The translations under genes were made by a program, and so were the position numbers. This document shows, piece by piece, positions 397 through 63,597 of a stretch of 64,000 nucleotides of DNA (within the stretch, counting starts at the first letter, position 1; each line of letters opens with the position of its first letter). The stretch is from Naegleria gruberi (Eukaryota). Location of the stretch: assembly GCA_000004985.1 (NCBI GenBank), contig GG738852.1. The stretch is one strand, 5' to 3'. The notes below the pieces were generated by a model. That model was not told the DNA's origin and ran no database searches. It worked only from the letters and a program-made list of their open reading frames with translations.

Positions 397-511
397 ATTA
401 AATAATATTTCTTTATTTTTATTGGTGACATTTTGGTTGACTAAGGAAATTTCCCTCCAAAATATTTACATTGATCGTTTTTAAAATGTGTTAAACTAAA
501 GTGATTGTTGT

Positions 512-1525
512 ATGGAGGAAAAAGTTAAAAACAACAAAAAAATGGTTGAAATTACAGAATTATTACTCAGGAAGAGATCGGAACACAATGAAGGGCAATT
601 ATCAAACCTAAAGGAAATAACACTCCACCAATTTGAAATTGAATCCATCAATGAAGTATTAGGGATATATTGTAGGGAATTACAAATTCTCTACTTGCAA
701 AATAACTTAATAAGAGTTATACAAAATTTACATCACCTCAAAGATTTGAGGTATTTGAATTTAGCTGTAAATAATATAACATCAATTAGTGGATTGGGAT
801 CGAATGAACATTTGGAAAAATTAGATTTGACAGCTAACTTTGTTTGGGACTTGTTGAGTGTTGAATCATTGAGAGAGAATTATAAGTTAAGGGAGATGCA
901 CTTGTTGGGAAATCCGTGCACTACCTTTGAGAATTATAGACTCTTTGTTATTGGTGCTGTTCCTAGTTTGCAAATTCTTGATGGTGAGCGAGTGGCAAAG
1001 AGTGAGAGAATTCTTGCTGAGCAATTAAAGGAACAAATCAAGAAATCTATTGAGGAGGAACAATCAAGAATCAATGTGGCAGATATTCAGGAAAATATTG
1101 AGCAACGTGACCAAGACAAGAAGGAAATGGCCGAACATAAGAATGCAAAGGAGAAGGCTCAAGAAAAGAACTTGGATGGAATCAATGAAGTGGATGGATT
1201 AGGACTTGGAAAGAGAGTTTCTCTCACTCCAGAAGAAGAGATTGAAAAGTATGGCAAAGTCATGCAAAAGAATGAAGGAAAATGGGCATTTAAATTATTG
1301 CAGGAGAAGGATCATTATGTGTTGGATATTCCAGCTGGAAAATACATGTCACTGAGCTATGTTGACATTGATGTTCAACCAACCTTTGTTCGTGTTACCA
1401 TCAAGGGTAAAGTTTTACAATTGAGATTTGATAGGGAGGTCAACTCTTCCAACGCATCAGCCCAACGATCCACCACAACAGGTAATATTGTAATCAAAAT
1501 TCCCTACTCAACTCTCAATCCTTAA
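512..1525 (+). CDS. LRRC6: LRRC6/TilB/Seahorse-type axonemal dynein-arm assembly factor with an LRR domain, an LRRcap and a CS (p23-like) domain.
   Basis: Near-identical blocks to metazoan LRRC6: 'ILYLQNNLI', 'YLNLA(V)NNI', 'KLDLTANFV', 'LLGNPC', 'DIDVQPTFVRVTIKGKVLQL', 'SSNASAQRSTTTGNIVIKIP'. The ORF starts at ATG 512, but the A-rich ATG at 542 ('MVEITELLLRKRSEHNEG') aligns better with the LRRC6 N-terminus. The 3' end could continue past a possible GTAATA donor at about 1483. Confidence 0.8.
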   Translation: MEEKVKNNKKMVEITELLLRKRSEHNEGQLSNLKEITLHQFEIESINEVLGIYCRELQILYLQNNLIRVIQNLHHLKDLRYLNLAVNNITSISGLGSNEHLEKLDLTANFVWDLLSVESLRENYKLREMHLLGNPCTTFENYRLFVIGAVPSLQILDGERVAKSERILAEQLKEQIKKSIEEEQSRINVADIQENIEQRDQDKKEMAEHKNAKEKAQEKNLDGINEVDGLGLGKRVSLTPEEEIEKYGKVMQKNEGKWAFKLLQEKDHYVLDIPAGKYMSLSYVDIDVQPTFVRVTIKGKVLQLRFDREVNSSNASAQRSTTTGNIVIKIPYSTLNP

Positions 1526-1675
1526 TTATTTCAAACTTTCTCTATTGAAAAGTATTACTATTAGAAAAACACGTATCTTTCACCACTGAAAATGAAATAA
1601 TAAATACTTTAAAGCACCATTATTATTGAATCTCTATACTTGATTGTTTATTACAAATAAACATTTCATAAAAAA

Positions 1676-2951
1676 ATGCGTAAACGATTGGGTTCGGTAA
1701 CAAGTAGAATTTTAGATCTAGGTAAGGAGAGAAGAGAGTTGTTTTATAATTTATTGAATATATAAGAAACAACACTTTTGTGTGGTCAAACATTTACTTT
1801 TAAACATTTCAAACCGAGCAATTCATTTGTCGGAGTTTTTGGAAATAATGTTATCGAGTTGACAAGTAATCATCAGGAGAATGATAATTTTATTTATTAT
1901 AGAAAATTAAATCCCATCAATATTAAAGCTAGCAGCAGTAGCAGTACTGATGAATCGAATGGTTCTTCATCAGCAAGTGATTCATTTGATGAAAAGGAAG
2001 TGGAACAATTAATTTCCGATTATTTTCAAATTGATAATTATGATATTGAAGAGTTGCATGAACATTTTGCCAAAGTTGACCCAGACTTGTTTGGGAAAAT
2101 TGTAAAATATTATTGTGGATGGAGATTATTGAAAATGGAACCACTGGAGACTTTGTTTTCCTTTATTTGTAGTTCGAATAATAATGTTTCAAGAATTACC
2201 AAAATGGTTCAGGTATTGTGTGAAGAGTATGGAGAGTGTTTGGGAGAATTTACTATTGATGATGGTGTGACAACATTTCCAATGTACAAGTTTCCAACAT
2301 TGGAACAATTAGAGGAATGCACTGAAAAGGAGTTAAAGTATGTTTTAAATTTCAGGTTAGTGAAATAATATTAATGAAATATTCAGAAAGCATAATTTTG
2401 GATATAGAGCCAAGTACATTGTTCAAACTGTTGAGAAATTAAAGGAGAAACCAGAAAAATACCTCTACACTCTCAGAGATAAAGAAAAGTATCCAACCAG
2501 CTTGGACGTATTGAATGAGTTGAAACAATTTTCTGGGGTTGGTATGAAGGTTGCTTCCTGCGTTGCATTATATAGCATGGATTGTCATGATTGCGTTCCA
2601 ACAGATGTCCACATTCTTAGAATTGCCAGAAATTGCTATCCATCAATGAAAACTATCATTTCGAAAAAGAAGAAATCACTCACTGAAAAGGAAATTCAAA
2701 AAGTTATGAAAGAGTTTGTAAATATATTTGGAGAATATGCTGGATTGGCGCAACTTATTCTATATGGAAGCCAATTATCTCAATTCAAAACTCGTATTCC
2801 GGCTGATGTTAGAGAAACACTCATTACCAAAGAGGAAGAAAGTGATGATGAGGATAAGGATTCTAATGAGGAATCATCAGCAGAAGAGGAGGAAGAAAAG
2901 CCAATCGTACAAGAAAAAAAGAAGAGGCGAGTTGTTAGAAGAAATAAATAA
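1676..2951 (+). CDS. OGG1: 8-oxoguanine DNA glycosylase (OGG1), 3 exons. Approximate join(1676..1721, 1767..2355, 2387..2951).
   Basis: Exon 1 'MRKRLGSVTSRILDL' joins through a 45-nt GTAAGG..AG intron to 'ETTLLCGQTFTFK' (compare human 'RLDLVLPSGQSFRWRE'). The conserved 'LFSFICSSNNNVSRITKMV' block is present. A second 31-nt intron (GTTAGT..CAG, 2356–2386) restores 'GYRAKYI'. The HhH-GPD region 'GVGMKVASCVALYSMDCHDCVPTDVHI' follows. Confidence 0.8.
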
Positions 2952-2953
2952 TT

Positions 2954-3880
2954 TTAAAGGTAAATAAAGTTAGGACTTGGCTCATTGGTCTTTAACCAAT
3001 TGAAATCATGAACTCTATTCCACTTATTCTTGTTATCATCCTCCACAACCATATCACAAGATTTGAGTTGAGTATCCAATCCTTCATATTCGAGGGAATA
3101 TCTTCCAAATTGTAAGCCAGAACAATTTTCAATAATTGGATTATTCTTTGGACAAATAAGGAATTCACATCCAGTACTGTCATGTATTCTCAATTGCCAA
3201 CAAGCAAGCTGGAATTTACAATTTTGACATTTGGAAAGGAAGATGGCACCATTCACAGGTCCTAATTCAATAGTACAATCCACAAGATTTGATATATACA
3301 CAGCGCCAATAATATGCCTTATTCTGACATGATTTTGATTTCCATTACAAATGGCAAAGCTTTCATTTTCCTTAGTTGGGGCAACTTCATGGATATAACC
3401 TGAAGGTACCCTACTCAGATCAACAACTGTCTTGTTAGTCTCCAACTTGATAGATGGAGTTTCCTCAACTACTACGTTTTGAGTTTCCTTCTTTTGAAGT
3501 GATTCAGAACTTGGTGCCTTCTTTTTGAATGAAAATACCTTTTTATCCTTCTTTAATTCTTCCTGGATTTTTTTAATCTTTTCATCTGCCTTTCGGACGT
3601 CATAGTTTGGCAGATAGTGCACATGTTGGTTTAAAAATTGTTGCAATTCAGAGGCTTGTTTTTGTTGACTAATTAATTCATTAAAAGCATTCCAAAAGAC
3701 TGTTGGATTTTCCTTAACCTCTTGATTTCTCTTATTTTTCATTTCTTCATTTCTCTTTTCCATCCTCTCAAGGAATTGCTTCCTCTTGGCTTCTTGTATA
3801 TAATTTAAACTTGGTGTAGTGTTATCTTGATTCAGTGATGTATCATCGGAATTTGTTGTATCAACAGTTGATGGAATCAT
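2954..3880 (-). CDS. Tubulin-folding cofactor C (TBCC) domain protein with a coiled-coil N-terminal region and a C-terminal CARP/TBCC domain.
   Basis: The C-terminal 'IGAVYISNLVDCTIELGPVNGAIFLSKCQNCKFQLACWQLRIHDSTGCEFLI' has the typical TBCC/RP2 beta-helix pattern. True start is the A-rich ATG 'aaaaaaaATGATTCCATCA' at 3880 (the track start at 3913 is TTG). The stop lies 2 nt from the OGG1 stop on the other strand. Confidence 0.6.
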   Translation of the reverse strand: MIPSTVDTTNSDDTSLNQDNTTPSLNYIQEAKRKQFLERMEKRNEEMKNKRNQEVKENPTVFWNAFNELISQQKQASELQQFLNQHVHYLPNYDVRKADEKIKKIQEELKKDKKVFSFKKKAPSSESLQKKETQNVVVEETPSIKLETNKTVVDLSRVPSGYIHEVAPTKENESFAICNGNQNHVRIRHIIGAVYISNLVDCTIELGPVNGAIFLSKCQNCKFQLACWQLRIHDSTGCEFLICPKNNPIIENCSGLQFGRYSLEYEGLDTQLKSCDMVVEDDNKNKWNRVHDFNWLKTNEPSPNFIYL

Positions 3881-4048
3881 TTTTTTTGTTTTTTGTATTT
3901 TCTTGAAGTGCAAATATTTGGCGGGAAAACAAATTGAAATATTTATTTAATGATCAAATAATTTAATTTCGAAATATTCCAATAATAGAGAATAGCTCAT
4001 CATTGTTATAATTAATAAATAAAATAATTAAATAATTGTATTAAATAA

Positions 4049-4666
4049 TTAAGCAATGGTGGCATAATTCTTCCAAAATTCAACAGAATCCATATATTTG
4101 GTTCTTTCTAATGGTACTCCACTACCTCCTTCTTCTTTTCCTAAAGCATTTCTCATCATTGTGATTGGAGTCATTGGAAGTTCATAATCAACGTCTTGTG
4201 ACTTAACAGAAATGATTCCCCATTCACAATCAGTAATTTCAGGTCTCTTTTCATAATCGGAAACTTCTTGCATTGCTTCAGATTCCTTCAATATTTGTTC
4301 TTTAGAGTAGAGAATAATATCCAAATATTTAGAGTCCTTGATTTGATCCTTTACTAAATCGTAAGGGAAATATCTACAGAGGACTGGTAATTCCGATTCT
4401 TTTCTTTGTTGATATTCTGTTCGGAGCAAATGTTCATTATCTTTGGTAATTTCCAAGAAACTTTGTTTACATCCTGCAAAATTAGGAACAAATAAATGTT
4501 TACAAAATGGTGCATAACCATCCTTCAATTGATAATCTCCAGAGCTCCAAATTTTGTTGATTTGTTCTTCAAAAGATTGGACAGAAATTGGAATTTGGGT
4601 GCCTCCTTTGTATCCTTGTTGGAATTGACGAACGGCGAAAGAGTCAATGTAAGTAAGTAATTTCAT
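4049..4666 (-). CDS. Conserved hypothetical protein of 205 aa with no confident family assignment.
   Basis: Clean ORF with an A-rich start context (aaaaaATGAAA) and no low complexity. No motif I can name. Confidence 0.4.
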   Translation of the reverse strand: MKLLTYIDSFAVRQFQQGYKGGTQIPISVQSFEEQINKIWSSGDYQLKDGYAPFCKHLFVPNFAGCKQSFLEITKDNEHLLRTEYQQRKESELPVLCRYFPYDLVKDQIKDSKYLDIILYSKEQILKESEAMQEVSDYEKRPEITDCEWGIISVKSQDVDYELPMTPITMMRNALGKEEGGSGVPLERTKYMDSVEFWKNYATIA

Positions 4667-4732
4667 TTTTTATTTACATTTTTCAAAATCAAATTAAAAG
4701 CAACCAATTCAGCTTAGGAAACTAAAACGAAT

Positions 4733-7700
4733 TTACATTTTTCTTCTTTCAACCACTGCAAAACTTGGGAATGATCTCTTCTTTAAACGTTCCAATTCTT
4801 CTGTGAGAATGTCGAGTTCTCGTTTTTGATCACGTGACAAATCTTGAAGTTTTCTTTCCCATCTAATTTCGGTCATACGCTTATCAGCAGCTTCTTTTTC
4901 TTTGGTGGCTGATTGAATTTGGTTGAGTTGAGCTCTTTCTTCAACAACTTGTTCGAAAATCTTGATTTGTCGAATGAGGTTAGTATTTTCTTCATATCTA
5001 ACATGCATTAAATCTTCCATCTTTTTAAGGATTCTCTTCTTTTCTTCGAGGGCAGTTTCAAGAGCAGCCTTAACATTTTCAATTTGTTTTTGGAGTTTAG
5101 CTCTTTCCATCTTTTTCTTCTCCTCTGTTCCTCCTCCACTCTTGATAATTTCTTGCATTTCCTTCTTTACTTTAAGCATTTGAAGCCTCTTGAATTTAAT
5201 TATCATTTCTTCAGTATCAAAAGCAATGAGGTCATTTTCCCATTGAATCTTTCTAATCTTCTTCTTTAAATCTTTCATCTTTGTCAATTGTTTAACAATT
5301 TCTTGACCCTGTTGTCTAATATTAGAGTTATGATCTTCAACAGTTGATCTAAATATAAGAATGGCATCAGAATAGTCAGTAACTACAGCTGCTTGTTCAA
5401 CTTCCACTTGACCTTGCTTGAATCTGAAAATCTTATCCATATTGTAAGACTCGGTTACAATCTTATCTCTGAACTTTGTCAGTTCAGTCATTTCCAAACT
5501 CATTATTGCATCCAAATCCTTATCTTCTTTGGTCAACTTGTCGAGACGGACTCTCATTTCGTCAAGTCTTTGTTGAGAATCTCTTACACTATTGTCCATT
5601 ACTACCTTTGCCTCTCTTATTTCCCAAAATCTTGCCCATAATTCATCATCAGCAATGTAGATTGGTCTTGATTTTTCTTCATCGAGAGGATCTTCTGGAG
5701 GAGCATTCTTTGCTTCTTCTGTTGCGTCTACATCAGCAAATGGATCTACAGAATTCAAAGCTAGGTCAATATTATCTTGATTTGTTTGAGGTTTAGATCT
5801 TGTTCTGAAAATCTTGTAAAGTTTTTCGAACATTTCACCAATTTTCATATTTGCTGCATGTTGCAACTTTTGGAATTCCATATTCATACTTGATTGAGTT
5901 TTTTGTTGCATCATCTTTTTACACATTTGTGAGAGAGCCTGTTGATTCGCTGGATAGAATACTTGAAGAATATCTCTTTGGAATTGAGTTTTGAACGATC
6001 TTTCCATTTGACGATCTTCTAGTATTATCTTTTCATGTTCAACCTTTTCAAGTTCAAACCTTTTGTGGTATTCCTGGACAGCACTAGAAGATTGAGCCTT
6101 CTTATTCTTCAATTCTTCTAAAATCTTTTCTAATTGCTTTTCTGCCTTTTCAAATTCTTCGTGTTGGATGATTGATTGAGAAAGTTTTACCATTTGGAGT
6201 TCAATTTCAAAAAGTGATTGGTCTGTTGATTGCTTTTTCAAGAATAGAATCTTCAAGTTTGTATCGAATTCTTGACAAAGATCAGCTATTTGTTGTTTGG
6301 CATTGTTGAGCTTGGCCTCCAATTGTTTAACCTTCTTAATACGCTCTTCTTCCTTTTGTTTCATTAAAGCTTCATATTCCTTGAGTTCTTTCATTTCTTG
6401 CTCTGTTAACTCAGATCTTTCCTTTCCCATTGCAGCTGGGACAGGTATTTCTTCTTCTTTAGTTTCGTGAGTGTCAAGATCTAATTTACCATCCATCATC
6501 ATTTGCAAGGCTCTTTGTGCTGTGTCCTTATCTTGCATTTTTGATGGATCTGATGCCTTTTGATTATCTTGCTTTTTAGACTTGTCGTCTGATCTCACAA
6601 ATTTAGTCTTTGGAAGCTCATCTTCGCTTACTTGGAGAATGTATTGTTCTGGCTTCTCTTGAGGTTTGAGTTTTACATCGAATATTTCAACAGGGATTGG
6701 TGTACCTGAACATCTGTTCAAATCTTTAGAAATGTCTAGAATTTTCTCGTTCATACTTTCAATCTTTCTGATAATTTGAGTCTTTTCTTCTCTCACCGTC
6801 TTAAATTCTCCATTAAATTGTCTTTTCATCTTGTCCACTTTTTCTTGAAGAAGGAAAATTTGGGTAACTTTTCTTTGTCTTGTGTATAGATCGGTATATG
6901 GATATAAAAGACCATCAAGATCGAGAATAAGGTTCTTTCTGATATTTTCCTTTGTTTTTCTTAATTCAGATTCATCCTCACTTCTGTTCTCTGAAATTTC
7001 ACTTGTTCTCGAGTTGGTTCTCTTGTTCGATTTTTCTTCATATTCTTCCTCATCTGGAACACCACCTTCGATATCGTTGGTAATGTATTCCTTTCTTCTG
7101 TTTACCAATGATATTTCTTCCATTCTTCTCATGAATGCAATCTTTTCAAGAATAACTTCTCTCTTTGGATCTCTCTTTCTAATCACATAATTTGGAACTT
7201 CCAGAAGAATTCCTTCCTTTTGGTATTCGGAAGCCATCTTGAAAGCAATAATAGTGGTTGCATGTTCTTCCATAGAGTCCCAACATTCCTTTTTGATTTT
7301 CTTTGCCAAGATGTCCTTCTTTACATTTTCTACACGCATAACTTCCTTTAGTTTCTCACATTCCTTTTCACCTTCTCTCTCCAGCATCTTTTTGTAATCT
7401 TCATCAATTATAAATTCGCTTTCAGATAATCTTTCATCCTCTGGAGCATTATCATTTTCAGCCTTAATTTCAAAAAATAGTTTTCTCAACTCGTCTATTT
7501 GAGAGAAAGCTTGCTCCTTCTTGGTTTCTTTCATCATTTGTTCAACCTTATTTTGATTGTCAGTCTTAATTTCCAAAATTGTTTTAAAATCTGGAGACTC
7601 TGATGTTGTCGAACACTTATCTTTTGGTTGAACTTTTGGAATGGCCATAACAAAACTGTTAGTGTTCATGTTTTCGGAAGGATCTAAGGAATAAACACAT

Positions 7701-10073
7701 ATACTTCCGTCATAGCCTGACGAGAAAATCGTAGTGGAATCGTATGAAAATGAAATACTTGAAACACCACCATTCATAGAATTGTGTAAATAGTATGATT
7801 CTGAGGCTCCTTCTTCTTCGTTCTGCTCAAAGAAGTTAGTATGTGCTATTCTGATTGAAACTACACCATCCTTTGCTCCAGTACATAGGTATCTTCCACA
7901 AGAACTCAAAACTACCCAAGCACCAGTTTTATAGTGGCACAAAGTTTCACTACTTGGAGTTACTACATTGTTACTCATTCCAGATTGTCTATCTTCAACG
8001 TTGAGATCGTAAATTTTGATTGTTTTGTCTTGTGACAAGGTGTAAATATGATTTGGATCGCTGCAATGATTGTCAATTACTCAAATGATACTAAAAACTT
8101 ACTCTTTGAAAGGAGCCATTCCGTAACATGGGTAATCCAGTTTCCACATATCTTTAGTAATATTTGTTAGTAAGATAACTTCTTCATATGTTACAGGAGG
8201 CTCTACAAGATACAAATCACCAACCTCAGTGGCCACATACAGAGATGTTTCATTAGACCAAGCGAGGGTTGAAATGTTGTGGTTAAATTTACAGAATCCA
8301 ATCAAGGACAAAAATTCATCATCATCTTCCATTGCCAAGTCAACGACAATATCCTCATTATTATTCTCAATCTCTGCATTACCCAAACGGAGGAATCCAA
8401 GAGTGGAATCGGCAAATGAGACGGCAACAAGTGTTCCATTTTTGCCTCCAATTTTAATGCTCGTAATAGCAGATGTCCTTAATCTGTGTGAATAAATTGC
8501 AATAGGTTGGTGTTTTTCATCAAATTCAAAGACTCTCAAAAAACCAATGGAAGAACCAACAAATAGCAGACCATTAGAGTATTGACCACATGAGAATAGT
8601 GCATTGAACTTTCTCTTGGCAATCAATGTATTGGTTTTGTAATTCCACACTCTAATAGTTCCATCCATACCATGACTCACAACAATGGATTTGTTTGTCT
8701 CTCCAGAGTCTTGTGGTTCCAATTGGTAAACACCTGTAACAGCTCCAATATGAGAATCGTAAACCTAAATAAATTGTCAAGAATAAATTCCATAATATAC
8801 TTACGTAACTCATGGATATTTCGTTCTTCATCAATTCCATATCAGTGATTGTATCTGTTTCGAATCCCTTAATATACACTCTAAAAATGGATCCATCCAC
8901 AGTGCCAGCTATTATATATTTGAAATTTCCTGAAATACAAACAGAAGAAATATCACCCAGTTTGTTGTTCAATGTTACAACTCTGGATGATATTCTTTCC
9001 TCATCATCAAATTTTTGTCCAGCATTATTAATTGTTGACATACGATAAACTTTCAAACATCCTTGATGTAATCCAGCAATACATGAGTGTCTACAAACTG
9101 CTATATTATACATTGCATCTCTAGAATCGTCTAAATCCAAAATAATACCATTTGAGTGAATATTTTCAAATCTTAAAAAGTCTCCATCATTCGTCACACA
9201 TAAAATGTCATTATTGACTCCCCATTCATGCCTATATAATTCTGTTGTTTTGATTTTTTCGTAAATGTTTTCTGAAACCTTCGGTTCTCTGGAAAATAAA
9301 GGTTAAAACAATTGAAATATTTTAGAAGAAACATACACTGGTATGATATCATATCCATCAACTATTGGATTTACCAGCCAGAATGCAAGATGAGCAAATC
9401 CACTCGAACATATTTGTAACTTGTTTCTTGGATTGAAACTGGCATACTTTGTAGTATTTGGTACTTGGGTTTGAATCAGACTTGAAAGTATATGTTAGCT
9501 CAGAATAATTTGAAGAAACCTACATCCTACTAGAGGCCCAATCCCAAACTGTGAGTTGATGGTCAGGAACTCCACTTAATGACAAAAGAAAACTACCATC
9601 CCTAGAGAAATCCAAATCCAAATAGTCAATTACTGATCCACCAGATAAAACTTTTAAAACCTCAAAAGTATTCAAATCATAAACTCTAATTTTTGGATGG
9701 GAATACGTATCTGCAACTGCAAAGACTCTTCTTTTCTTGTTGAAGGCAATTGCACTAATTCCTGCTGTGAGGTATAACTGTTTTGTAGTTGCCACAGATT
9801 GTCTCAAATCAAATGAGTCTTGTACAGATTTATCCTCACTAATATAGATATCGGGAACAAAGTAGTGTTCCTCCTTTGTTTCAATATTAATAAATCTCAC
9901 TCCCCTTCCACAAATAAATGCAATCCTTTGATCGTCCACTGAGTGAATCTTCCTTCCATCGTAACCGTAGGAAGATCTTGTTGTATTAAAGTACGCTCCA
10001 AGTTAGACTGATGATAGATAATAAATTATTGCACTTACATCATCTCACTGCTGATAAAGTCTTGGTTAGGCAT
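4733..10073 (-). CDS. Cilia/flagella-associated WD40 plus coiled-coil protein of the CFAP43/CFAP44 family, about 1650 aa in 5 exons. Approximate join(10073..10039, 9976..9524, 9288..8805, 8764..8103, 8060..4733).
   Basis: N-terminal exons encode WD repeats ('...HPKIRVYDL...TVWDWASSR', 'HGMDGTIRVWNYKT'). The 1100-aa last exon is E/K-rich coiled coil. Introns carry GTAAGT or GTAGGT donors and AG acceptors and restore one continuous frame. They are 62, about 235, 40 and 42 nt long. Size and architecture match CFAP43 (WDR96). Confidence 0.65.
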
Positions 10074-10096
10074 TTTTTTTGTAGTTTGAAATGAAT

Positions 10097-10110
10097 TTTG
10101 GCGCCAAAAG
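10097..10110. promoter_or_regulatory. Palindromic E2F/DP-like element TTTGGCGCCAAAAG, about 30 nt upstream of the CFAP43/44-like gene ATG.
   Basis: Exact TTTGGCGC / GCGCCAAA dyad. It lies in the 60-nt gap between two minus-strand genes. Confidence 0.35.
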
Positions 10111-10135
10111 ACGGTTCAAAGTAAGTTTGTTAAAC

Positions 10136-12643
10136 TTACATAAACTCGTTTATTAGGCCAGAGAATTCTGATGGTTGAGAGCTATTTGTAATAAATTCAT
10201 AATTGGTCCAATCATCCTCATCAGCATATAAATTCTTTACAGAATTGAGCTTTTTCATAAGATAGAAATCTTCATGAATATCAGATTCATTTGGGACAAT
10301 GTTAAGTTTGTGACTATAAACATTCTTAGGTATTGGACTTATCAATGGTGTGCTTAGGATATTTAGGTCGGGTGTTTGTTTCTTAGTGATCGTCGTAGAC
10401 TTTGGTGTGGTGGTTTTACTCTTTGGTGTTGAGGTGGTAGTTTTTGTTGGACTCATCTCGCTTGGTTTTTTCATTCTTTCCTCAATAATTTGAACAATGT
10501 CTCCATTAGTTGCAGATTTAGAAATGGATTTGAGGTTATATCTCCTTCTGCGGAAAATACTAGGTCTTGATTTTGTCACTCTATTCTTCCAATTTTTTCT
10601 TTCAGAGTAATCATAAAATTCTCTGGTTTTTTTACAACCTAGCAATACTGTGTTATTCTCCCTAATGTCATGCACAAATCCACGAGCCTTCCTTAAAGCA
10701 TCCCTTATTGCCTTTTCCAATGCTGCTTTTGATATTTCGTTGCTTTCTGGTTGCATTTCTGATTTGTTTGATGATTCTACATTATTGGATTCATCGTCCT
10801 CATCTGTCTCTTCTGATAATGACTTGGAATCACTCACCACTGTTACCTCTTTACCCTCTGGACTTTGCACTTTGCTCATATTAATATCAGCAATTATCGA
10901 GTCTTGTCTTTTTTTCTCCTCTTCCAAGTTGCTTTGGTGAGATACATTATGATGAATTTGAGAATGGTTTGGCATTAATACTTCATTTGTAACATTGACA
11001 GGCTCAGGATATTGTGGTGGGAATTTTTGTAGTAATACCTCATTTGTGACATTAACAGGCATTGGATCACTAGGATAGCATTGTGGAGGCACACAATATT
11101 GAGGTGGGAAATTAGTGCCACTAATATCATTTTGGATATCTGAATCGAAACGATTACGCATAAAGCTGCCATTGTTATTAGTGTTTGAGGTTGTAGTGAT
11201 AGCGGGAGGAGGAATCATCACTGGTACAGTAACGAGAGGTGTACCCCAAGCTTGCTCAATTGAACTAGTGTTAATCTGTGCAGACATGTTTTGATTTACA
11301 TGGTGACCTACAAGATTATATGTTGGGGGAGTATTATGGATTTGACTTGGTGGATTAAGTGAGGGTGAGAGTTGACTGCATGGATCCAAAACTGGTTGTT
11401 GGTGTTGTTGGTCAGAAATATGTATAGTTTGTGATTTAGGAGTAGACATGTTGAACGAAGAGGACAAAACTACAGGAGGATTGGATGGAGTTCTTTGAGG
11501 GGAAAATTGGGAGATATTTGTTTGTTGAGCTGGTGGGGGTTGAAGTAATGGAGGTGTAGCAATATTTGATGAGTGGAAGGAAGTTGAAATTCGAGAGCTG
11601 TTCATCGATGTGTTCACAAAGTTTGAAGGAGGTGGCATTAAGCGATCATCTGAGGAAATATTTCCTCTGAGTGATGTAGGTTGTATCAACTGAGATTGGT
11701 GGGTTTGAGGAATTGGTTGATTGGTTGTCTTAATTGGATCAACATATTGCTCTGTTTGGCAATATTGAGATCCAGTAAAGGTAGATTGTGGAGCTTGAAG
11801 AATTGATGTTTGAGTACTCTGACAAAACATTTGTTGAGATGAGCTTGTACTAGATGGTTTGATTTCTTCTACTTTCATGTGTTTGAGTAATTTTGCAGTT
11901 TGGGTAGGGAATTTCATATTGTTATTGTTTGATTGAGCAACAGAGGAAAATCGTTGTCTAAATGCCTTATTGATAGCATCAGCAACATCTTTCTCATTCT
12001 CAGCAGGTTTGTTCACAGGCTTTGAGAATTGTGACCGTATCCTTGAAAGTTGTGACAGTGATCTCTGAGTATTAACATCGTCTTCATTATTATTTCTAGT
12101 AATCCTATTTACAACAGTTGAGGAAGATGTAAAGCCATACTGTTGTGAAGGATTGTAACTGTGTGAAGAGAGAAAATTAGGTGTCCTAACTCCACCAACT
12201 GCAGTATAAGTAGTAATCGAACTAGAGAAGGGTTGGTGGGGTGTTTGATGTTGAAAATTGGTTTCAACATTAGGATAGTATGATTGTGATGATGGTGTCT
12301 GATAGTTAGAAACCTGCTGAGGACGAGCAGCAAGAGTTTGATATCTTACTGTTGAACTGCTGCTTTGGTATGGTGTTTGATAATTGTTTGTAGGAGGGAG
12401 TTGCTTTTGTGGTATGGTTTGCTGTTGGTGAATTTGTTGTGATGGTGATGTGATTTGCTGACGAGGATGAAATTGTTGTTGCTGTGGATAGTTATTGTAA
12501 TAATATTGTTGTTGTTGATGATTCTGATATGGTTGATAGTTTGAATTTTGTACTACATTCCTTGTGTGCAATGGTTGTGTTTGCATGCTACCTTGTTGTG
12601 TCGGGATGAAGTATTTGTGTTGTGGCGGTTGGAAAGACATCAT
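10136..12643 (-). CDS. Q/N/S/P-rich low-complexity protein of 835 aa with a basic, structured C-terminal region. Function unknown.
   Basis: Long single ORF with polyQ/N tracts and a C-terminal segment 'ISKAALEKAIRDALRKARGFVHDIREN...'. The start is 'ATGATGTCTTTCCAACCG'. Confidence 0.5.
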   Translation of the reverse strand: MMSFQPPQHKYFIPTQQGSMQTQPLHTRNVVQNSNYQPYQNHQQQQYYYNNYPQQQQFHPRQQITSPSQQIHQQQTIPQKQLPPTNNYQTPYQSSSSTVRYQTLAARPQQVSNYQTPSSQSYYPNVETNFQHQTPHQPFSSSITTYTAVGGVRTPNFLSSHSYNPSQQYGFTSSSTVVNRITRNNNEDDVNTQRSLSQLSRIRSQFSKPVNKPAENEKDVADAINKAFRQRFSSVAQSNNNNMKFPTQTAKLLKHMKVEEIKPSSTSSSQQMFCQSTQTSILQAPQSTFTGSQYCQTEQYVDPIKTTNQPIPQTHQSQLIQPTSLRGNISSDDRLMPPPSNFVNTSMNSSRISTSFHSSNIATPPLLQPPPAQQTNISQFSPQRTPSNPPVVLSSSFNMSTPKSQTIHISDQQHQQPVLDPCSQLSPSLNPPSQIHNTPPTYNLVGHHVNQNMSAQINTSSIEQAWGTPLVTVPVMIPPPAITTTSNTNNNGSFMRNRFDSDIQNDISGTNFPPQYCVPPQCYPSDPMPVNVTNEVLLQKFPPQYPEPVNVTNEVLMPNHSQIHHNVSHQSNLEEEKKRQDSIIADINMSKVQSPEGKEVTVVSDSKSLSEETDEDDESNNVESSNKSEMQPESNEISKAALEKAIRDALRKARGFVHDIRENNTVLLGCKKTREFYDYSERKNWKNRVTKSRPSIFRRRRYNLKSISKSATNGDIVQIIEERMKKPSEMSPTKTTTSTPKSKTTTPKSTTITKKQTPDLNILSTPLISPIPKNVYSHKLNIVPNESDIHEDFYLMKKLNSVKNLYADEDDWTNYEFITNSSQPSEFSGLINEFM

Positions 12644-12711: not shown

Positions 12712-12725
12712 TAATTGGCGCCAAA
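12712..12725. promoter_or_regulatory. Second copy of the palindromic TTGGCGCCAAAA element, about 70 nt upstream of the Q/N-rich protein gene ATG.
   Basis: Same GGCGCC-cored 12-mer as at 10097. It sits in an otherwise >75% AT intergenic region. Confidence 0.35.
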
Positions 12726-12860
12726 ATTATTAGACTCTATTAGTTGTTGTGGCATAATTTATTTTGCTTCAACATTTTAAATTTGAAAAGAAGGTGTTCC
12801 ATTATTTGTTCAATTTTTATTTTGGAATTCATTAAACCTAATTATTTTACATTTTCTACT

Positions 12861-16783: not shown

Positions 16784-17259
16784 TTAATCATCTCCAGCAT
16801 CATCATCTTCATCGTTAGAATCATTCTCTTCAATAGATCTTGGAACTGGCTTGTTTTGGTAACCATTGGACCACAATCTGACTTCATAGTCCAACAAGAC
16901 TTCATCCATGTCAGCGTCCCTCTTTTCTCGGAACAATTCATTAACCTTCTCTCTGTGATCTAATTTAAATGTGTTTAATAATTTACGTAAAATTGTCACG
17001 TACCAGCTAATTGTTGTTTAGTATTGTCATCAATATCTTCAAATTTAACGGAGAGCTTGTTTTTCATCATCATAACAGTCGCCATCATACAAACAAAAAG
17101 AGTAGGAACAAAGATTGATAATTGTCTTGTTGGAGTTGATCTACTTGCTCTATCCGCATACAACATACGAGAAATCCATCCTCTTTTTGGTGCTTGTCTT
17201 GAAATCGGGTTTTTGGCGTTTTGTTCTTGAATAATATCCTGCAGTGATTTTCTTGTCAT
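16784..17259 (-). CDS. Small single-pass membrane protein, 2 exons. Approximate join(17259..17002, ~16951..16784).
   Basis: Basic N-terminus, one TM helix 'LSIFVPTLFVCMMATVMMM' and an acidic C-terminus ('...NDEDDDAGDD'). A GTACGT..TAG intron joins the two track ORFs in frame. Family unknown. Confidence 0.35.
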
Positions 17260-38815: not shown

Positions 38816-39036
38816 TCATGAGGCTCTTCCACCATCATGTTGAAGGTTGTTGTTTTCCCTCCAAAAATTAAATATGTATGATTTAGATATTATAATAATA
38901 ACATGTTGTTTGTAGAAATAAACAAATTGCAAGTCCCGATAATGAGTTTAAAAAAAGTGGTGCTGGCGATAGTGTTTGGTACATGAAAATGATTATTTAA
39001 ATAAAAAATAAAAAATTGTAAATAATTGAAAAAAAA

Positions 39037-52001: not shown

Positions 52002-52811
52002 TATGTTTGAGTTGGTGGAGGAGCTTTTGTTTATGAGTATGATGATGATTTTGTTAAGCAACTTTAGGACTAGTGAAAGGAAGGCTCAACAAATCGATAT
52101 TTAGGAGATTTGATTTGATAGGTTTTTTTGAGGTGAGAATTTGGTAAGGGTTGTCATTAAGTGTCTCTTGGTGTGATGAATAAAACTAGCGTTGTTGGCG
52201 GGAATACCGTCCAGTGTCTTTATAGAAAATATACATTCCTTAATCAAATATTATACCGTAGGATGTGTTGCGTGCATCTAAATTAAAGCCTCGTCCAAAC
52301 AAAGGTCTTTTTACGTAAAAAAACAAACTTATCAGAACATCTTAACGGCCCAGATGCAAAGAGCAAATTCGTCCAATTTATATATTAAGGCATTTTTAGG
52401 ACATCATTGTCAGTAATAAAGAATAAAGAGGCGCAATATCTTTTATAAATCTATCTCAACTTTTCGTAATAGTCACAAGCAAAGAACAGGTGCAATCAAC
52501 TACTTAACTTGAAACCTATCTTAAAAAAATTGGGCTTCCTTTTGAAAGAACAACAAGCCATGTCTACATCTTCAAGAAGAACAATCACTAAGCTAATAAC
52601 ACTCCATTTTAAAATTGAAATTGTAATTGCAGATTTTGGATTGGCTAAAAAGTTTCTAGAAATGAAAGGCAATTTACAAGTAGGTCCATACCTTGAAAAT
52701 TCACAACCTCAGAAAATGAAGCCAAATTTGCTCCAATTAATTGGAGAATGTTTTCAAAAACTACTGCTCATTAGCAGTTACAGAAATTCAAATCAATTTG
52801 TTGTAGAGATA

Positions 52812-61039: not shown

Positions 61040-63088
61040 TTAATTTTTAATACCTTGTTGTGTTGCTACATATAATAACTCTTTCAGGCCAGCAATTTCA
61101 AAATTTTTCAATTCAACTCTTTTTCTTTCAGTAACCAGTTTCTTCCTCAGATAGGTTGGGTTTTTGAAAAATGGAATTCCTTGTTCGTGCACAAGCTCTG
61201 ATTCTTCTTCTTCTGTTTCTGAAGTTGGAATCTCAGCAAGATTCATGACTGGTTGAGGCGGAGGAGACTTGGATATTCCATTCGATTTGGTAGTCGATTT
61301 AGTGGTATTCGAAATGGTTGAAACATTGGAAGGGGACTTTTTGTTACTGGAAGGCATGCTAGTAGGAGTTGACATGTTACTGATATTTGTAGGAACATTT
61401 GGGGTCACTGCTGGCGTACTATTAGATGCACTCTTAGAAATCTTTCCAGTTGTTGATGGACTTCTCTTCTGGGAGCTGTTTGTAGCGCTTGGAGTTTGGT
61501 ACTTTTCAGTATTCCTTGTTGGAGGAGAGCAATCTCTAGAATGCTTATTGCTTGAAGATTGCTCTGGTTCGTCAACATTGGAGTTTGGCGATTGAACAAT
61601 GTGAGAGTTTTCTTTCAAAACATTATTCTCCTGCTTTAAACTTTCAATTCTATCAACTAATTTGTGTTTTAACTTTTTGTATCTTTCCAGCTTTTCAATC
61701 ATCTTTTCATACTTTTCAACAAAGGTTGAGAATTGAAGCTTGGTTTGATCGAATTCCTTAACAAAATTCACCAAATCTTTTTCTTGATGCTTAATCTTTT
61801 TGGATTTGGTATGAAGCTCCTTTTGTTGTGATCCAATTTGAGCTTCAAGTTCTGAAATTCTCATATTTTGTTCCTCTATTCTCTTCTCAAGTCTTGCAAT
61901 TGTTTCTGCTTGTTGAGAGCACCTATCGTTGGATGATCGTAGTTGTTCTGTGGCTCTTGAAAGCTCCCCTTCCAAATTATTTACATTTTCGCTTAATCCT
62001 CTATTCTCGGTTTGCAGCTTGTCAATCTGAGTGGCGAGTTGTTGCGATGTTTCTGAAAGAGAGTCTAACCTCTCCTTCCAAGTTTTCTTTAGGGTCAACA
62101 ACTTTTGATTCTCTTCGGCCATCCTTTGTTGTTGATTGTAGTATTGTTCATTTAGTGCCTTTTCGTTTTTGAAACCTTCGTTAGCAATTTTCTCTCTTCT
62201 TTGACTTTCCATAAGTTCATTTTCGAGCATTGCTAATTTCCTTTCTAAATCTCTGTTCTTCTTTTCTAAATCCCATTTTTCTTTCTCATTCCATTTAGCG
62301 TCAAAGTCAATTGAAGATTTAACTTCATTGTCACCGTCATAGCCATTAGAAGCTGCCACTGATTCAAACCTATTAAGTAAATTTTTTGATGGTGAAACTG
62401 TTTTAGAGAGATCTGTTTTTTCCATAGAAGCTATTTGTTGATTCAGAGGATTTCTAATGGTCACATGAATGTCATTGAATCCATCACTTGCCATTATGGC
62501 TGTAGCAGAATCATCATCATCGTCCATCACCATAAGGCTGTTTAGAATATTTTGTCCAGTCTGAGAATCTATTGTTTGATTGGAATTCTTTTGCCAATTT
62601 TTAAGAGTGGTCACCACTGATATTAATGAATCTGATTTTTCGGAATCTGAACTGCTTGAAGTCTTGTTGTCATATTCTCCAAAATGAGAAATTAGTTCAT
62701 GAGATGAGAGTTTTCCAATACTTTGTTTCATTTCTTTAAGGTCGTATTTAAATTCAAGAAGTTCATTATCATCACTCTTCCTTATTCTTTGGGCTCTTCC
62801 GAACATGTCATCCCATTCAGTGTCATCTTCCTCTGAGAGCATTGAAGTATCGTAATTAGTGCTGAAACTTTCATCCAATTGCGAAAGTTCCTTTGCCTTG
62901 GAACTATTGAGACTAGTTCCAGTCGATTGTTGAGATGTATTTGTTGCAAGTAATTCAATCTTATTCGGTGAGGGTTGTTGAGGTGGAAGATTGCTACAAG
63001 CAAAATTAGCACCAGAATTGTTATTTGGTGTGTTAGGATTACTGGTCCTTTTCTTTGCGGGTGATGATGAATTTGAGAGAACCATCAT
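61040..63088 (-). CDS. Coiled-coil protein of 682 aa with an S/T/N-rich N-terminus and a basic C-terminus. Function unknown.
   Basis: Extended heptad-repeat E/K/L/Q-rich core ('LERKLAMLENELMESQRREKIANEG...LQTENRGLSENVNNLEGELSRATEQL'). The start is 'ATGATGGTTCTC'. Upstream lie (AAG)6 and E2F-like sites. Confidence 0.5.
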   Translation of the reverse strand: MMVLSNSSSPAKKRTSNPNTPNNNSGANFACSNLPPQQPSPNKIELLATNTSQQSTGTSLNSSKAKELSQLDESFSTNYDTSMLSEEDDTEWDDMFGRAQRIRKSDDNELLEFKYDLKEMKQSIGKLSSHELISHFGEYDNKTSSSSDSEKSDSLISVVTTLKNWQKNSNQTIDSQTGQNILNSLMVMDDDDDSATAIMASDGFNDIHVTIRNPLNQQIASMEKTDLSKTVSPSKNLLNRFESVAASNGYDGDNEVKSSIDFDAKWNEKEKWDLEKKNRDLERKLAMLENELMESQRREKIANEGFKNEKALNEQYYNQQQRMAEENQKLLTLKKTWKERLDSLSETSQQLATQIDKLQTENRGLSENVNNLEGELSRATEQLRSSNDRCSQQAETIARLEKRIEEQNMRISELEAQIGSQQKELHTKSKKIKHQEKDLVNFVKEFDQTKLQFSTFVEKYEKMIEKLERYKKLKHKLVDRIESLKQENNVLKENSHIVQSPNSNVDEPEQSSSNKHSRDCSPPTRNTEKYQTPSATNSSQKRSPSTTGKISKSASNSTPAVTPNVPTNISNMSTPTSMPSSNKKSPSNVSTISNTTKSTTKSNGISKSPPPQPVMNLAEIPTSETEEEESELVHEQGIPFFKNPTYLRKKLVTERKRVELKNFEIAGLKELLYVATQQGIKN

Positions 63089-63200
63089 GATGAAAATATC
63101 TTCTTCTTCTTCTTCTTAGTAAAGGCTTTTTTGCTAGATTAAAATCAGGCCACCAACAAAGCCTTCTTAGTGTTTCTTTTTTTTTAAATATTTTTTCCCG

Positions 63201-63250
63201 CTTTATGATTACATTTTTCAAAAAGCGCCAAATTTTTTCCCGCCAAAAGG
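63201..63250. promoter_or_regulatory. Cluster of three E2F-consensus matches (TTTTCCCGC, GCGCCAAAT, TTTCCCGCCAAAAGG) in the promoter region between the coiled-coil gene (minus) and the Pus gene (plus).
   Basis: 'tttttcccgctttatgatt...aaaagcgccaaattttttcccgccaaaagg' lies 110–160 nt upstream of ATG 63088. An (AAG)6 tract sits at about 63100–63117. Confidence 0.35.
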
Positions 63251-63597
63251 AATTTGTTTTATCTTGTAAAAACTAACACAAATAAATTATTTATCAGCTG
63301 GGTGCTTATAGTAGGTAGGAAGCATTATCGCTCATGAAATAGCTCAGCGGGAAGTCAGAAAGTTGTCATCATAATCAATTCACTGAATTGGGTAAGGAAA
63401 TAAAAAATGACAAGTTTAAATCGAGATGATTTATGGTTAACATTTTCTTACCTTTTAAAAAAATATTTACAAGTAGAAAATAATAAAGCAGTGTGATGGT
63501 GAGGATTAACAAGAGGCCATTCACATCAACAACAACTGATTAGAAAACCAGAAAATTAATTAGCAATGAATGGTATTAATTTTGATTGAACAAAAAA

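What the first reader, a model, noticed from the sequence alone, without database searches (positions are those of the whole stretch)
10097..10110. Recurrent palindromic TTTGGCGCCAAA (E2F/DP-type) element in promoters
The GC-palindromic 12-mer occurs at 10097 and 12712, each 30–70 nt upstream of a minus-strand ATG. Three further E2F-consensus matches (TTTCCCGC, GCGCCAAA, TTTCCCGCCAAAA) cluster at 63201–63250, upstream of the coiled-coil gene.

In a roughly 67% AT sequence two identical GGCGCC-cored 12-mers are unlikely by chance. The element is the textbook optimal E2F site, which suggests cell-cycle-coupled control of a flagellar gene, a Q/N-rich gene and a coiled-coil gene.
Basis: partly seen in the sequence, partly recalled or inferred. 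Interest (0 to 1): 0.5.

Follow-up and report, generated by a model that had tools for sequence, protein, structure and literature searches.

The report
Conserved E2F-type promoter sites in Naegleria
Short GC-cored sequences that match the classic binding site of the cell-cycle factor E2F lie just upstream of four Naegleria gruberi genes, including a flagellar gene and a tubulin-folding gene. Related amoebae keep them at the same genes, so they are almost certainly real promoter switches of a well-known kind.

Summary
The window is Naegleria gruberi scaffold_8:640001-704000. The exact TTTGGCGCCAAA occurs once, inside the palindrome TTTTGGCGCCAAAA at 10096-10109. The 12-mer shared with the second site is TTGGCGCCAAAA (10098-10109 and 12715-12726). 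The three-site cluster lies at 63194-63248.

TTTSSCGC gives 7 strand hits against about 1 expected. All lie in the 16% of the window that is intergenic, 22-147 nt upstream of one ATG each. In an unbiased k-mer scan, E2F-like 7- and 8-mers take the top ranks among words over-represented across intergenic segments.

N. fowleri has the identical 14-mer upstream of CFAP43 despite a different neighbouring gene, and CCCGCCAAAA upstream of TBCC. A 39%-identical environmental orthologue of the coiled-coil gene has TTTCCCGCC 55 nt upstream of its ATG.

Published N. gruberi E2F, DP, DEL and RB sequences exist, and the E2F, DP and DEL sequences carry intact DNA-binding domains.

Verdict: these are functional E2F-family promoter sites, a new member of a known kind. 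Binding was not tested. No expression data were held for CFAP43, the Q/N-rich gene or the coiled-coil gene, so cell-cycle or differentiation control is inferred. A link to flagellar differentiation is an interesting but unproven lead.

The parts
10096..10109 (.). Perfect 14-bp palindrome TTTTGGCGCCAAAA (an E2F-type TTTSGCGCSAAA site). It lies 22 nt upstream of the CFAP43 ATG, inside the 62-nt spacer between the Q/N-rich gene's stop codon and the CFAP43 start.
   Evidence: The identical 14-mer is found upstream of N. fowleri CFAP43 at L004 7931-7944. The longest common substring of the two upstream regions is 15 nt, reached by 1 of 1000 shuffles.
12714..12727 (-). ATTGGCGCCAAAAT (ATTTTGGCGCCAAT in gene orientation), an E2F-type site 70 nt upstream of the ATG of the Q/N-rich gene.
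   Evidence: No orthologue could be fetched, so conservation was not tested.
3917..3929 (-). TTTGGCGGGAAAA (TTTTCCCGCCAAA in gene orientation), an E2F-type site 36 nt upstream of the TBCC ATG.
   Evidence: N. fowleri TBCC has CCCGCCAAAA 70 nt upstream of its ATG. A contig from a near-identical relative has TTTTACCGCCAAAT at the same place.
63194..63248 (-). Cluster of three E2F-type sites: TTTCCCGC at 63194-63201, GCGCCAAA at 63225-63232 and TTTCCCGCCAAAA at 63236-63248. They lie 105-147 nt upstream of the ATG of the coiled-coil gene.
   Evidence: An environmental orthologue (39% identity) has TTTCCCGCC 55 nt upstream and GGCGGGA about 20 nt upstream of its ATG. TTTCCCGCC is the only TTTSSCGS match in that 7.5-kb contig.
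4733..10073 (-). CFAP43 gene (cilia- and flagella-associated protein 43; WD40 repeats plus coiled coil; several exons). It is the target of the palindrome.
   Evidence: Pfam CC_Cfap43 2.3e-93. The N. fowleri orthologue is named as a cilia- and flagella-associated protein and vertebrate homologues as CFAP43. The first exon, ending ...SSEMM|GTAAGT, is conserved in N. fowleri.
2954..3880 (-). Tubulin-binding cofactor C (TBCC) gene.
   Evidence: Pfam TBCC 4e-31. The protein is identical to XP_002680925, 'tubulin binding cofactor C [Naegleria gruberi]'.
10136..12643 (-). Gene for a Q/N/S-rich protein of unknown function (835 aa).
   Evidence: No significant Pfam family was found.
61040..63088 (-). 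Gene for a coiled-coil protein of unknown function (682 aa).
   Evidence: Only sub-threshold Pfam hits were found: Lebercilin at E=0.004, and ADIP at E=0.006 in the orthologue.
10074..10087 (-). Second conserved block, AAACTACAAAAAAA in gene orientation, between the palindrome and the CFAP43 ATG. It is a candidate core-promoter or transcription-start element (inference).
   Evidence: In the alignment of the N. gruberi and N. fowleri upstream regions, only this block and the palindrome are conserved.
52196..52206 (.). Possible weak fifth site, TTGGCGGGAAT, which lacks the T/A runs. It lies in a poorly modelled stretch upstream of the ORFs at 49442-52061.
   Evidence: It was not followed up, and the gene model there is uncertain.

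Best explanation
The GGCGCC- and GGCGGG-cored elements are functional promoter-proximal binding sites for Naegleria's E2F-family winged-helix factors. These are the E2F/DP heterodimer, presumably under RB control, and/or the two-domain DEL (E2F7/8-like) protein.

Each winged helix would read one half of the CG core through its RRxYD motif, with the T and A runs as flanks, as in the E2F4-DP2-DNA structure. The sites lie 22-147 nt upstream of the ATG of TBCC, CFAP43, a Q/N-rich gene and a coiled-coil gene. They would tie transcription of these genes to E2F activity, that is to cell-cycle progression and probably also to the amoeba-to-flagellate differentiation burst.

Shown here: the sites exist, are enriched, sit in promoters, are conserved at orthologous promoters, and the published N. 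gruberi factor sequences have intact DNA-binding domains. Inferred: that E2F/DP or DEL actually binds them, the direction of the effect (activation or repression), and its timing.
For: 1. Consensus and enrichment. There are 7 TTTSSCGC strand hits against 1.04 expected. All lie in the 16% of the window that is intergenic, where the Markov expectation is 0.22 and P is about 8e-5.

2. Unbiased scan. The top-ranked 7- and 8-mers shared between intergenic segments are GGCGGGAA, TGGCGGGA, CCCGCCAA, GCGCCAAA and CGCCAAAA, with p from 4e-6 to 6e-5 among 6315 8-mers.

3. Phylogenetic footprints.
- N. fowleri CFAP43 keeps the identical TTTTGGCGCCAAAA although its upstream neighbour is a different gene (G-alpha rather than the Q/N-rich gene). 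The rest of the spacer has diverged.
- N. fowleri TBCC keeps CCCGCCAAAA.
- The environmental orthologue of the coiled-coil gene keeps TTTCCCGCC.
- About 9 such sites occur in roughly 98 kb of related loci, and 3 of them fall in the three orthologous windows of about 150-200 nt.

4. Factors. The supplement of Medina et al. 2016 gives sequences labelled NgruE2F, NgruDP, NgruDEL and NgruRB. Pfam confirms E2F_TDP plus E2F_CC-MB, E2F_TDP plus DP, and two E2F_TDP stretches in DEL. The E2F DNA-binding domain aligns to 1CF7 chain A (human E2F4) at 7e-25, with [24 protein letters not shown] identical.

5. Expression context. Tubulin-binding-cofactor complex members are 'core' genes, up in both mitosis and differentiation. 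The motif-less neighbour DUF3228 (jgi_31083) is flat in both time courses.

6. Precedent. The same two motif forms, DTTGSCGCCH and TTTGGCGGGAAV, are the most over-represented upstream motifs in the AT-rich protist Cryptosporidium parvum (PMC3734150).
Against: - No binding data exist.
- No expression data were retrievable for CFAP43, the Q/N-rich gene or the coiled-coil gene.
- None of the four genes is a canonical S-phase E2F target. The one DNA-repair gene in the window (OGG1) has no site.
- The sample is only about 40 promoters.
- DNAAF11/FM8 is strongly induced in both mitosis and differentiation but has only a CpG-less look-alike, TTTCCCTCCAAAA. The motif is therefore neither necessary for that expression pattern nor general to flagellar genes.
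- A near-identical relative carries a C-to-A change inside the TBCC site, TTTTACCGCC. Not every core base is fixed.
- The Willaertia CFAP43 start could not be located, so conservation there is inconclusive.
Confidence: 0.7

Rival explanations
1. The sites are real, conserved promoter elements, but they are read by a different, non-E2F Naegleria factor that recognises a GGCGCC/GGCGGG core with A/T flanks. The match to the E2F consensus would then be coincidental.
For: No binding was tested. The target genes are not classic S-phase genes. The conserved core at TBCC is CCGCCAAA, with the position before it varying. The CpG-less TTTCCCTCCAAAA occurs upstream of two other genes, one of which is induced in mitosis and differentiation.
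Against: Both canonical E2F forms are present, TTTGGCGCCAAA and TTTGGCGGGAAA, with full T/A flanks. The NgruE2F and NgruDP DNA-binding domains carry the RRxYD motifs, and NgruE2F is near-identical to human E2F4 over its DNA-binding domain. The same pair of motifs marks E2F-encoding protists such as C. parvum.
Confidence: 0.12
2. The elements are primarily differentiation switches rather than cell-cycle switches. E2F-family sites would drive part of the microtubule and flagellar programme that is induced de novo when amoebae turn into flagellates. This would be analogous to E2F4/5-MCIDAS in vertebrate multiciliated cells.
For: Two of the four targets are a flagellar gene (CFAP43) and a tubulin chaperone (TBCC). 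Tubulin-binding-cofactor genes rise in differentiation as well as mitosis. Cell-cycle genes such as MCM4 and Apc6 are transiently induced during differentiation in the published table. RFX, FOXJ1 and XAP5 are reported absent from Naegleria, so the cilia regulator is unknown (PMC12183034).
Against: Two other flagellum-associated genes in the same 10 kb, DNAAF11/FM8 and DUF3228, lack a canonical site. There are no expression data for CFAP43 here. The sample is very small.
Confidence: 0.25
3. The matches are chance occurrences, or remnants of a repeat, with no function.
For: Identical 12-13-mers are common by chance in 64 kb, and the window holds only 6 sites.
Against: The sites are enriched against shuffles and against a Markov model. 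They are exclusively intergenic and come top of the unbiased k-mer scan. They are conserved at orthologous promoters amid diverged flanks. The flanks of the different sites are unrelated, so they are not copies of a mobile element.
Confidence: 0.03
4. The palindrome acts at the RNA level, as a hairpin in the CFAP43 5' leader or as a 3'-end signal for the upstream Q/N-rich gene.
For: The palindrome lies in a 62-nt spacer that must also hold the 3' end of the upstream transcript.
Against: The predicted folding is no better than for shuffled sequence, with z = -0.6 in N. gruberi and 0.0 in N. fowleri. In N. fowleri the upstream gene is different, yet the palindrome stays with CFAP43. The other sites, of the TTTCCCGCC type, are not palindromic.
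Confidence: 0.02

Closest known systems
Canonical E2F/DP promoter sites (TTTSSCGC / TTTSGCGCSAAA) of animals and plants, as in the E2F4-DP2-DNA structure 1CF7
   Same: The sequence is the same, including the palindromic CG core with a T run on one side and an A run on the other. The sites are promoter-proximal, and one promoter carries multiple sites. The published N. gruberi E2F sequence has a DNA-binding domain near-identical to E2F4, and DP and RB sequences are published too.
   Different: The targets seen here are a flagellar gene, a tubulin chaperone and two unknown genes, not DNA-replication genes. The sites lie within 22-147 nt of the ATG in extremely short intergenic spacers. Neither binding nor RB dependence has been shown.
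E2F-like upstream motifs of Cryptosporidium parvum (5'-TGGCGCCA-3' / DTTGSCGCCH and TTTGGCGGGAAV; PMC3734150)
   Same: Both are AT-rich protist genomes. The same two variants occur, one GGCGCC-cored and palindromic and one GGCGGGAA-type. They were found by over-representation upstream of genes in an organism that encodes E2F/DP.
   Different: In C. parvum the motif is pervasive, occurs upstream of many functional classes and was established genome-wide. Here only one 64-kb window and a few orthologous loci were examined.
Atypical E2F7/8 (plant DEL) sites, TTCCCGCCAAAA (E2F8-DNA structure 4YO2). The sequence preference is recalled from my own knowledge.
   Same: Two sites, TTTCCCGCCAAAA at 63236 and TTTTCCCGCCAAA at 3917, match this extended form. 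The published N. gruberi DEL sequence has two E2F_TDP domains.
   Different: Nothing here distinguishes binding by DEL from binding by E2F/DP. DEL-type factors are repressors in animals and plants.
E2F4/5-MCIDAS/GEMC1 control of multiciliogenesis in vertebrates (reviewed in PMC12183034)
   Same: An E2F-family site lies upstream of a cilia gene and of a gene needed to make tubulin, in a cell that builds basal bodies and flagella de novo.
   Different: This is only an analogy. No geminin-family co-activator, no binding and no expression dependence has been shown in Naegleria. Other flagellar genes in the window lack the site.
CDE/CHR tandem elements bound by the DREAM/MuvB complex (E2F-like CDE, a 4-nt spacer, then TTYGAA)
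   Same: A TTYGAA hexamer lies within 45 nt of the E2F-like site in 6 of 8 promoters examined. At CFAP43 two of them flank the palindrome symmetrically, as TTTGAA-N5-palindrome-N5-TTCAAA.
   Different: The spacing varies from 3 to 22 nt instead of the fixed 4 nt, and the arrangement is not conserved in N. fowleri. MuvB/LIN54 in Naegleria was not examined, and no paper was found.

Membership tests
E2F/DP-responsive promoter element | The sequence matches TTTSSCGC, or the extended TTTSGCGCSAAA / TTTGGCGGGAAA. | tested here: met
   There are six sites. Three are full 12-mer matches and one has a single flank mismatch.
E2F/DP-responsive promoter element | The site is promoter-proximal, upstream of a gene start. 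| tested here: met
   All sites are intergenic and lie 22-147 nt upstream of exactly one ATG each. Transcription start sites are unknown.
E2F/DP-responsive promoter element | The organism encodes E2F and DP with intact winged-helix DNA-binding domains (RRxYD) and a pocket protein. | tested here: met
   NgruE2F, NgruDP, NgruDEL and NgruRB sequences come from the supplement of PMC4862756. Pfam finds the E2F_TDP, E2F_CC-MB and DP domains. The match to 1CF7 is 7e-25. The RB sequence was not run through Pfam. The sequences were taken from the paper and not re-found in a genome here.
E2F/DP-responsive promoter element | The site is conserved at orthologous promoters. | tested here: met
   Met for CFAP43 and TBCC in N. 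fowleri and for the coiled-coil gene in an environmental relative. Willaertia was inconclusive. The Q/N-rich gene was not tested.
E2F/DP-responsive promoter element | E2F/DP physically binds the site (gel shift, ChIP or DAP-seq). | not testable with these tools
   No binding data were found in the literature searches.
E2F/DP-responsive promoter element | The target genes show cell-cycle- or RB-dependent expression. | tested here: inconclusive
   Tubulin-binding-cofactor complex members are reported up in both mitosis and differentiation. The rows for CFAP43, the Q/N-rich gene, the coiled-coil gene and TBCC itself (jgi_78608) lie beyond the stored part of Data S2.
CDE/CHR (DREAM/MuvB) tandem element | A CHR hexamer (TTYGAA) lies exactly 4 nt downstream of the E2F-like CDE. 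| tested here: not met
   TTYGAA is nearby in 6 of 8 promoters, but at spacings of 3-22 nt and in either orientation.
CDE/CHR (DREAM/MuvB) tandem element | The organism has LIN54/MuvB subunits. | not tested
Atypical E2F7/8 (DEL) site | The extended TTCCCGCCAAAA sequence is present, and the organism has a factor with two E2F DNA-binding domains. | tested here: met
   The sequence occurs at 63236-63248 and 3917-3929. NgruDEL has two E2F_TDP stretches. Binding is not testable.

The most novel reading that the evidence does not exclude
E2F-family factors (E2F/DP-RB and/or DEL) are a long-sought transcriptional driver of part of Naegleria's microtubule programme. That programme covers the 'core' genes switched on both before mitosis and during the de novo assembly of basal bodies and flagella, possibly together with a TTYGAA (CHR-like) partner element. 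This would make an E2F-ciliogenesis link ancestral rather than a vertebrate multiciliated-cell invention. It would also name a regulator for cilia genes in a lineage that lacks RFX, FOXJ1 and XAP5.
Probability: 0.2. Interest if true: 0.7.

Novelty: new member of a known kind. Interest (0 to 1): 0.4.

Why it matters
E2F sites are textbook elements, so their presence in a eukaryote that encodes E2F, DP and RB is expected. The searches of the held literature found no description of Naegleria promoter motifs. A 2025 review states that the factors controlling cilia genes in Naegleria are unknown, because RFX, FOXJ1 and XAP5 are absent.

A perfectly conserved E2F palindrome upstream of CFAP43, and a conserved site upstream of TBCC, give a concrete and cheaply testable candidate for part of that regulation. 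The test would combine a genome-wide motif scan with the published mitosis and differentiation RNA-seq. The sites also show that E2F site specificity is conserved out to the Heterolobosea.

Tried and rejected
- Expression look-up. Data S2 of the Kennard et al. preprint is stored only up to about jgi_38xxx. Searches by coordinate, by peptide and by name found no rows for CFAP43, the Q/N-rich gene, the coiled-coil gene or TBCC. Only five other window genes were recovered.
- Unavailable papers. Fritz-Laylin & Cande 2010 and the published Kennard 2025 paper are not held.
- Willaertia magna. DUF3228 is not next to TBCC there. The CFAP43 5' end could not be located, and only a degenerate GGCGTCAAA was seen.
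- Metagenome scans for more orthologous promoters. The CFAP43 N-terminal profile found nothing. The TBCC profile found one 37%-identical contig with no usable upstream DNA.
- L007, an environmental DUF3228 contig, has no TBCC downstream.
- RNA hairpin idea: no structure signal.
- tRNA and Rfam scans of the window found nothing.
- Identity of the coiled-coil and Q/N-rich proteins: only sub-threshold Pfam hits.
- CDE/CHR membership was rejected on spacing.
- PMC1779779, the C. parvum 2007 motif paper, contains neither the term E2F nor the string GGCGCC.

Full report
**Source of the window.** The window comes from Naegleria gruberi NEG-M. The proteins encoded at 4049-4666(-) and 2954-3880(-) are identical to XP_002680926 (NAEGRDRAFT_31083) and to XP_002680925, 'tubulin binding cofactor C'. 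A published gene table places jgi_31083 at scaffold_8:644049-644666. The window is therefore scaffold_8:640001-704000. G+C is 34%. CpG is strongly depleted, with observed/expected of 0.37 in ORF-like DNA and 0.62 elsewhere.

**The observation.**
- The exact TTTGGCGCCAAA occurs once, at 10097-10108, inside a perfect 14-bp palindrome TTTTGGCGCCAAAA at 10096-10109.
- The second copy is ATTGGCGCCAAA at 12714-12725, not at 12712.
- The two places do share an identical 12-mer one base out of register, TTGGCGCCAAAA. They hold the only two GGCGCC hexamers in the 64 kb.
- The cluster is real but lies at 63194-63248: TTTCCCGC, GCGCCAAA and TTTCCCGCCAAAA.

**What lies downstream.** Every site is in a tail-to-head spacer on the minus strand, upstream of exactly one ATG.

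| Downstream gene | Distance from site to ATG | Pfam evidence |
|---|---|---|
| TBCC | 36 nt | TBCC, 4e-31 |
| CFAP43 | 22 nt | CC_Cfap43, 2e-93, plus WD40 exons |
| Q/N-rich protein of 835 aa | 70 nt | no family |
| Coiled-coil protein of 682 aa | 105, 136 and 147 nt | sub-threshold hits only |

The CFAP43 site sits in a 62-nt spacer that begins at the stop codon of the Q/N-rich gene.

**Chance.**
- TTTSSCGC gives 7 strand hits against 1.04 +/- 1.03 in dinucleotide shuffles, with a maximum of 3.
- TTTGGCGSSAAA with at most one mismatch gives 8 hits against 0.76 expected.
- On a rough gene map only 16% of the window is intergenic, yet all six sites, in four regions, are intergenic. The first-order Markov expectation there is 0.22, so Poisson P(>=4) = 8e-5.
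- I also scanned all 7- and 8-mers for presence in several intergenic segments, without using the E2F consensus. The top ranks were GGCGGGAA, TGGCGGGA, CCCGCCAA, GCGCCAAA and CGCCAAAA, with p between 4e-6 and 6e-5 among 6315 8-mers.
- The flanks of the different sites are unrelated, so the sites are not copies of a repeat.

**Conservation.**
- CFAP43. In N. fowleri the CFAP43 orthologue (64% identity) sits next to a different upstream gene, G-alpha. It still has the identical TTTTGGCGCCAAAA, 56 nt upstream of its ATG. The longest common substring of the two 200-nt upstream regions is this element (15 nt), reached by 1 of 1000 shuffles. In the alignment only this block and a second block, AAACTACAAAAAAAA, are conserved.
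- TBCC. N. fowleri TBCC has CCCGCCAAAA 70 nt upstream of its ATG. A contig from a near-identical N. gruberi relative has TTTTACCGCCAAAT at the same place. CCGCCAAA is therefore invariant while one core base varies.
- Coiled-coil gene. The only detectable homologue is 39% identical and comes from an environmental contig. It has TTTCCCGCC 55 nt upstream and GGCGGGA about 20 nt upstream of its ATG. TTTCCCGCC is the only TTTSSCGS match in that 7.5-kb contig.
- Background rate. About 9 such sites occur in roughly 98 kb of related loci, and three of them fall in the three orthologous windows of 150-200 nt.
- Gaps. Willaertia was inconclusive because the CFAP43 start could not be found. The Q/N-rich gene could not be tested.

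**The factor.** The supplement of Medina et al. 2016 (PMC4862756) gives sequences labelled N. gruberi E2F, DP, DEL and RB.
- Pfam confirms E2F_TDP plus E2F_CC-MB in E2F, E2F_TDP plus DP in DP, and two E2F_TDP stretches in DEL. The RB sequence was not checked.
- The E2F DNA-binding domain aligns to human E2F4 of the E2F4-DP2-DNA crystal structure (1CF7) at 7e-25. The stretch [24 protein letters not shown] is identical. NgruDP carries RRRVYDALNVL.
- From established structural knowledge (Zheng et al. 1999), the two RRxYD motifs read the two halves of the CG core. An unchanged site preference is therefore the expected outcome.
- TTTCCCGCCAAAA also matches the extended form preferred by atypical E2F7/8 factors (my own knowledge; 4YO2 appears among the matches). 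DEL is therefore an equally possible reader.

**RNA-level alternative.** The spacer RNAs fold no better than shuffled sequence, with z of -0.6 and 0.0. The palindrome travels with CFAP43, not with the upstream gene.

**Function.** Kennard et al. (bioRxiv 10.1101/2024.01.08.573270) profiled synchronised mitosis and differentiation.
- They report tubulin-binding-cofactor complex members as 'core' genes, up in both processes.
- In the stored part of their table, cell-cycle genes such as MCM4 and Apc6 rise transiently during differentiation.
- The motif-less DUF3228 neighbour is flat. The sybindin and cysteine-desulfurase genes go down in differentiation, and the mitochondrial S15 gene is essentially flat.
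- FM8/DNAAF11 (window 542-1525) is strongly induced in both processes. It has only a CpG-less look-alike, TTTCCCTCCAAAA, 50 nt upstream of its first ATG.
- Rows for the four motif-bearing genes were not retrievable.

The regulatory outcome is therefore inferred. The most likely reading is coupling to E2F activity in the cell cycle, and probably in the differentiation burst. The motif is clearly not a general flagellar-gene signal.

**Comparison with known systems.**
- The elements fit the E2F/DP promoter-site family on sequence, position, presence of the factor and conservation. Binding and regulated expression remain untested.
- The closest protist precedent is Cryptosporidium parvum. There the same two forms, TGGCGCCA/DTTGSCGCCH and TTTGGCGGGAAV, are the most over-represented upstream motifs (PMC3734150).
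- A CDE/CHR (DREAM) classification fails on spacing, although TTYGAA hexamers are suggestively frequent near the sites.
- The vertebrate E2F4/5-MCIDAS multiciliogenesis circuit is only an analogy (PMC12183034).
- Searches of the held literature found nothing on E2F motifs or promoter motifs in Naegleria.

**Verdict.** This is a real, conserved promoter element of a well-known kind, not previously described for this organism in the literature I could search. It is ordinary in mechanism. It is moderately interesting as a lead, because the regulators of Naegleria's microtubule and flagellar genes are unknown.

Noticed in passing
window 449-462 and 38853-38866: An identical 13-mer, TTTCCCTCCAAAA, is an E2F-like site with T in place of the CpG's G. 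One copy lies 50 nt upstream of DNAAF11/FM8, which is strongly induced in both mitosis and differentiation. The other lies 66 nt upstream of the Dim1 rRNA dimethylase gene, in the opposite orientation. A 13-mer repeated twice is not significant by itself.
   Followed up: partly
window 10074-10087; L004 7946-7960; also window about 3888-3900 and L001 about 10740-10752: The block AAACTACAAAAAAA between the E2F palindrome and the CFAP43 ATG is conserved in N. fowleri. A similar AAAATACAA block lies upstream of TBCC in both species. It is a candidate initiator or transcription-start element of Naegleria promoters.
   Followed up: partly
window 10085-10120: The palindrome is flanked symmetrically by CHR-like hexamers, as TTTGAA-N5-TTTTGGCGCCAAAA-N5-TTCAAA. 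TTYGAA lies within 45 nt of the E2F-like site in 6 of 8 promoters examined, against a background of 0.0031 per nt. The spacing varies and is not conserved in N. fowleri.
   Followed up: partly
window 512-10073: Four microtubule- or flagellum-related genes cluster in 10 kb: DNAAF11/FM8, TBCC, DUF3228 (named 'flagellar associated protein' in other species) and CFAP43. The DUF3228-TBCC adjacency is conserved in N. fowleri, but CFAP43 lies elsewhere there.
   Followed up: partly
window 52196-52206 and 17208-17220: Two weaker E2F-like matches lie in apparently non-coding DNA. One is TTGGCGGGAAT upstream of the unannotated ORFs at 49442-52061. The other is the half-site TTTTTGGCGTTTT upstream of the TMC-domain gene.
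   Followed up: no
L004 16668-16679 (N. fowleri): TTGGCGCCAAAT lies about 25 nt upstream of the ATG of an 858-aa Kelch-repeat protein gene. This is another E2F-type site in N. fowleri.
   Followed up: no
whole window: CpG is strongly depleted, with observed/expected of 0.37 in ORF-like DNA and 0.62 in the rest, and GCGC occurs only 11 times in 64 kb. Intergenic spacers are extremely short: 62 nt between the Q/N-rich gene's stop and the CFAP43 ATG, and 66 nt between the CFAP43 stop and the DUF3228 ATG.
   Followed up: no
window 32527-35661 and 56277/56652-59054: Two apparent gene fusions are present. One joins a thiaminase-I-like N-terminal domain to a full transketolase (1044 aa). The other joins a class-V aminotransferase (cysteine desulfurase-like) to AIR-synthase-related domains (800 aa).
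   Followed up: no
window 63250-63825: About 580 nt between the E2F cluster and the next plus-strand gene hold no long ORF, no tRNA and no Rfam match. The plus-strand gene starts at 63826 and looks like a TruA/PUS1-type pseudouridine synthase by its RTDKGVH motif, recognised by eye.
   Followed up: partly
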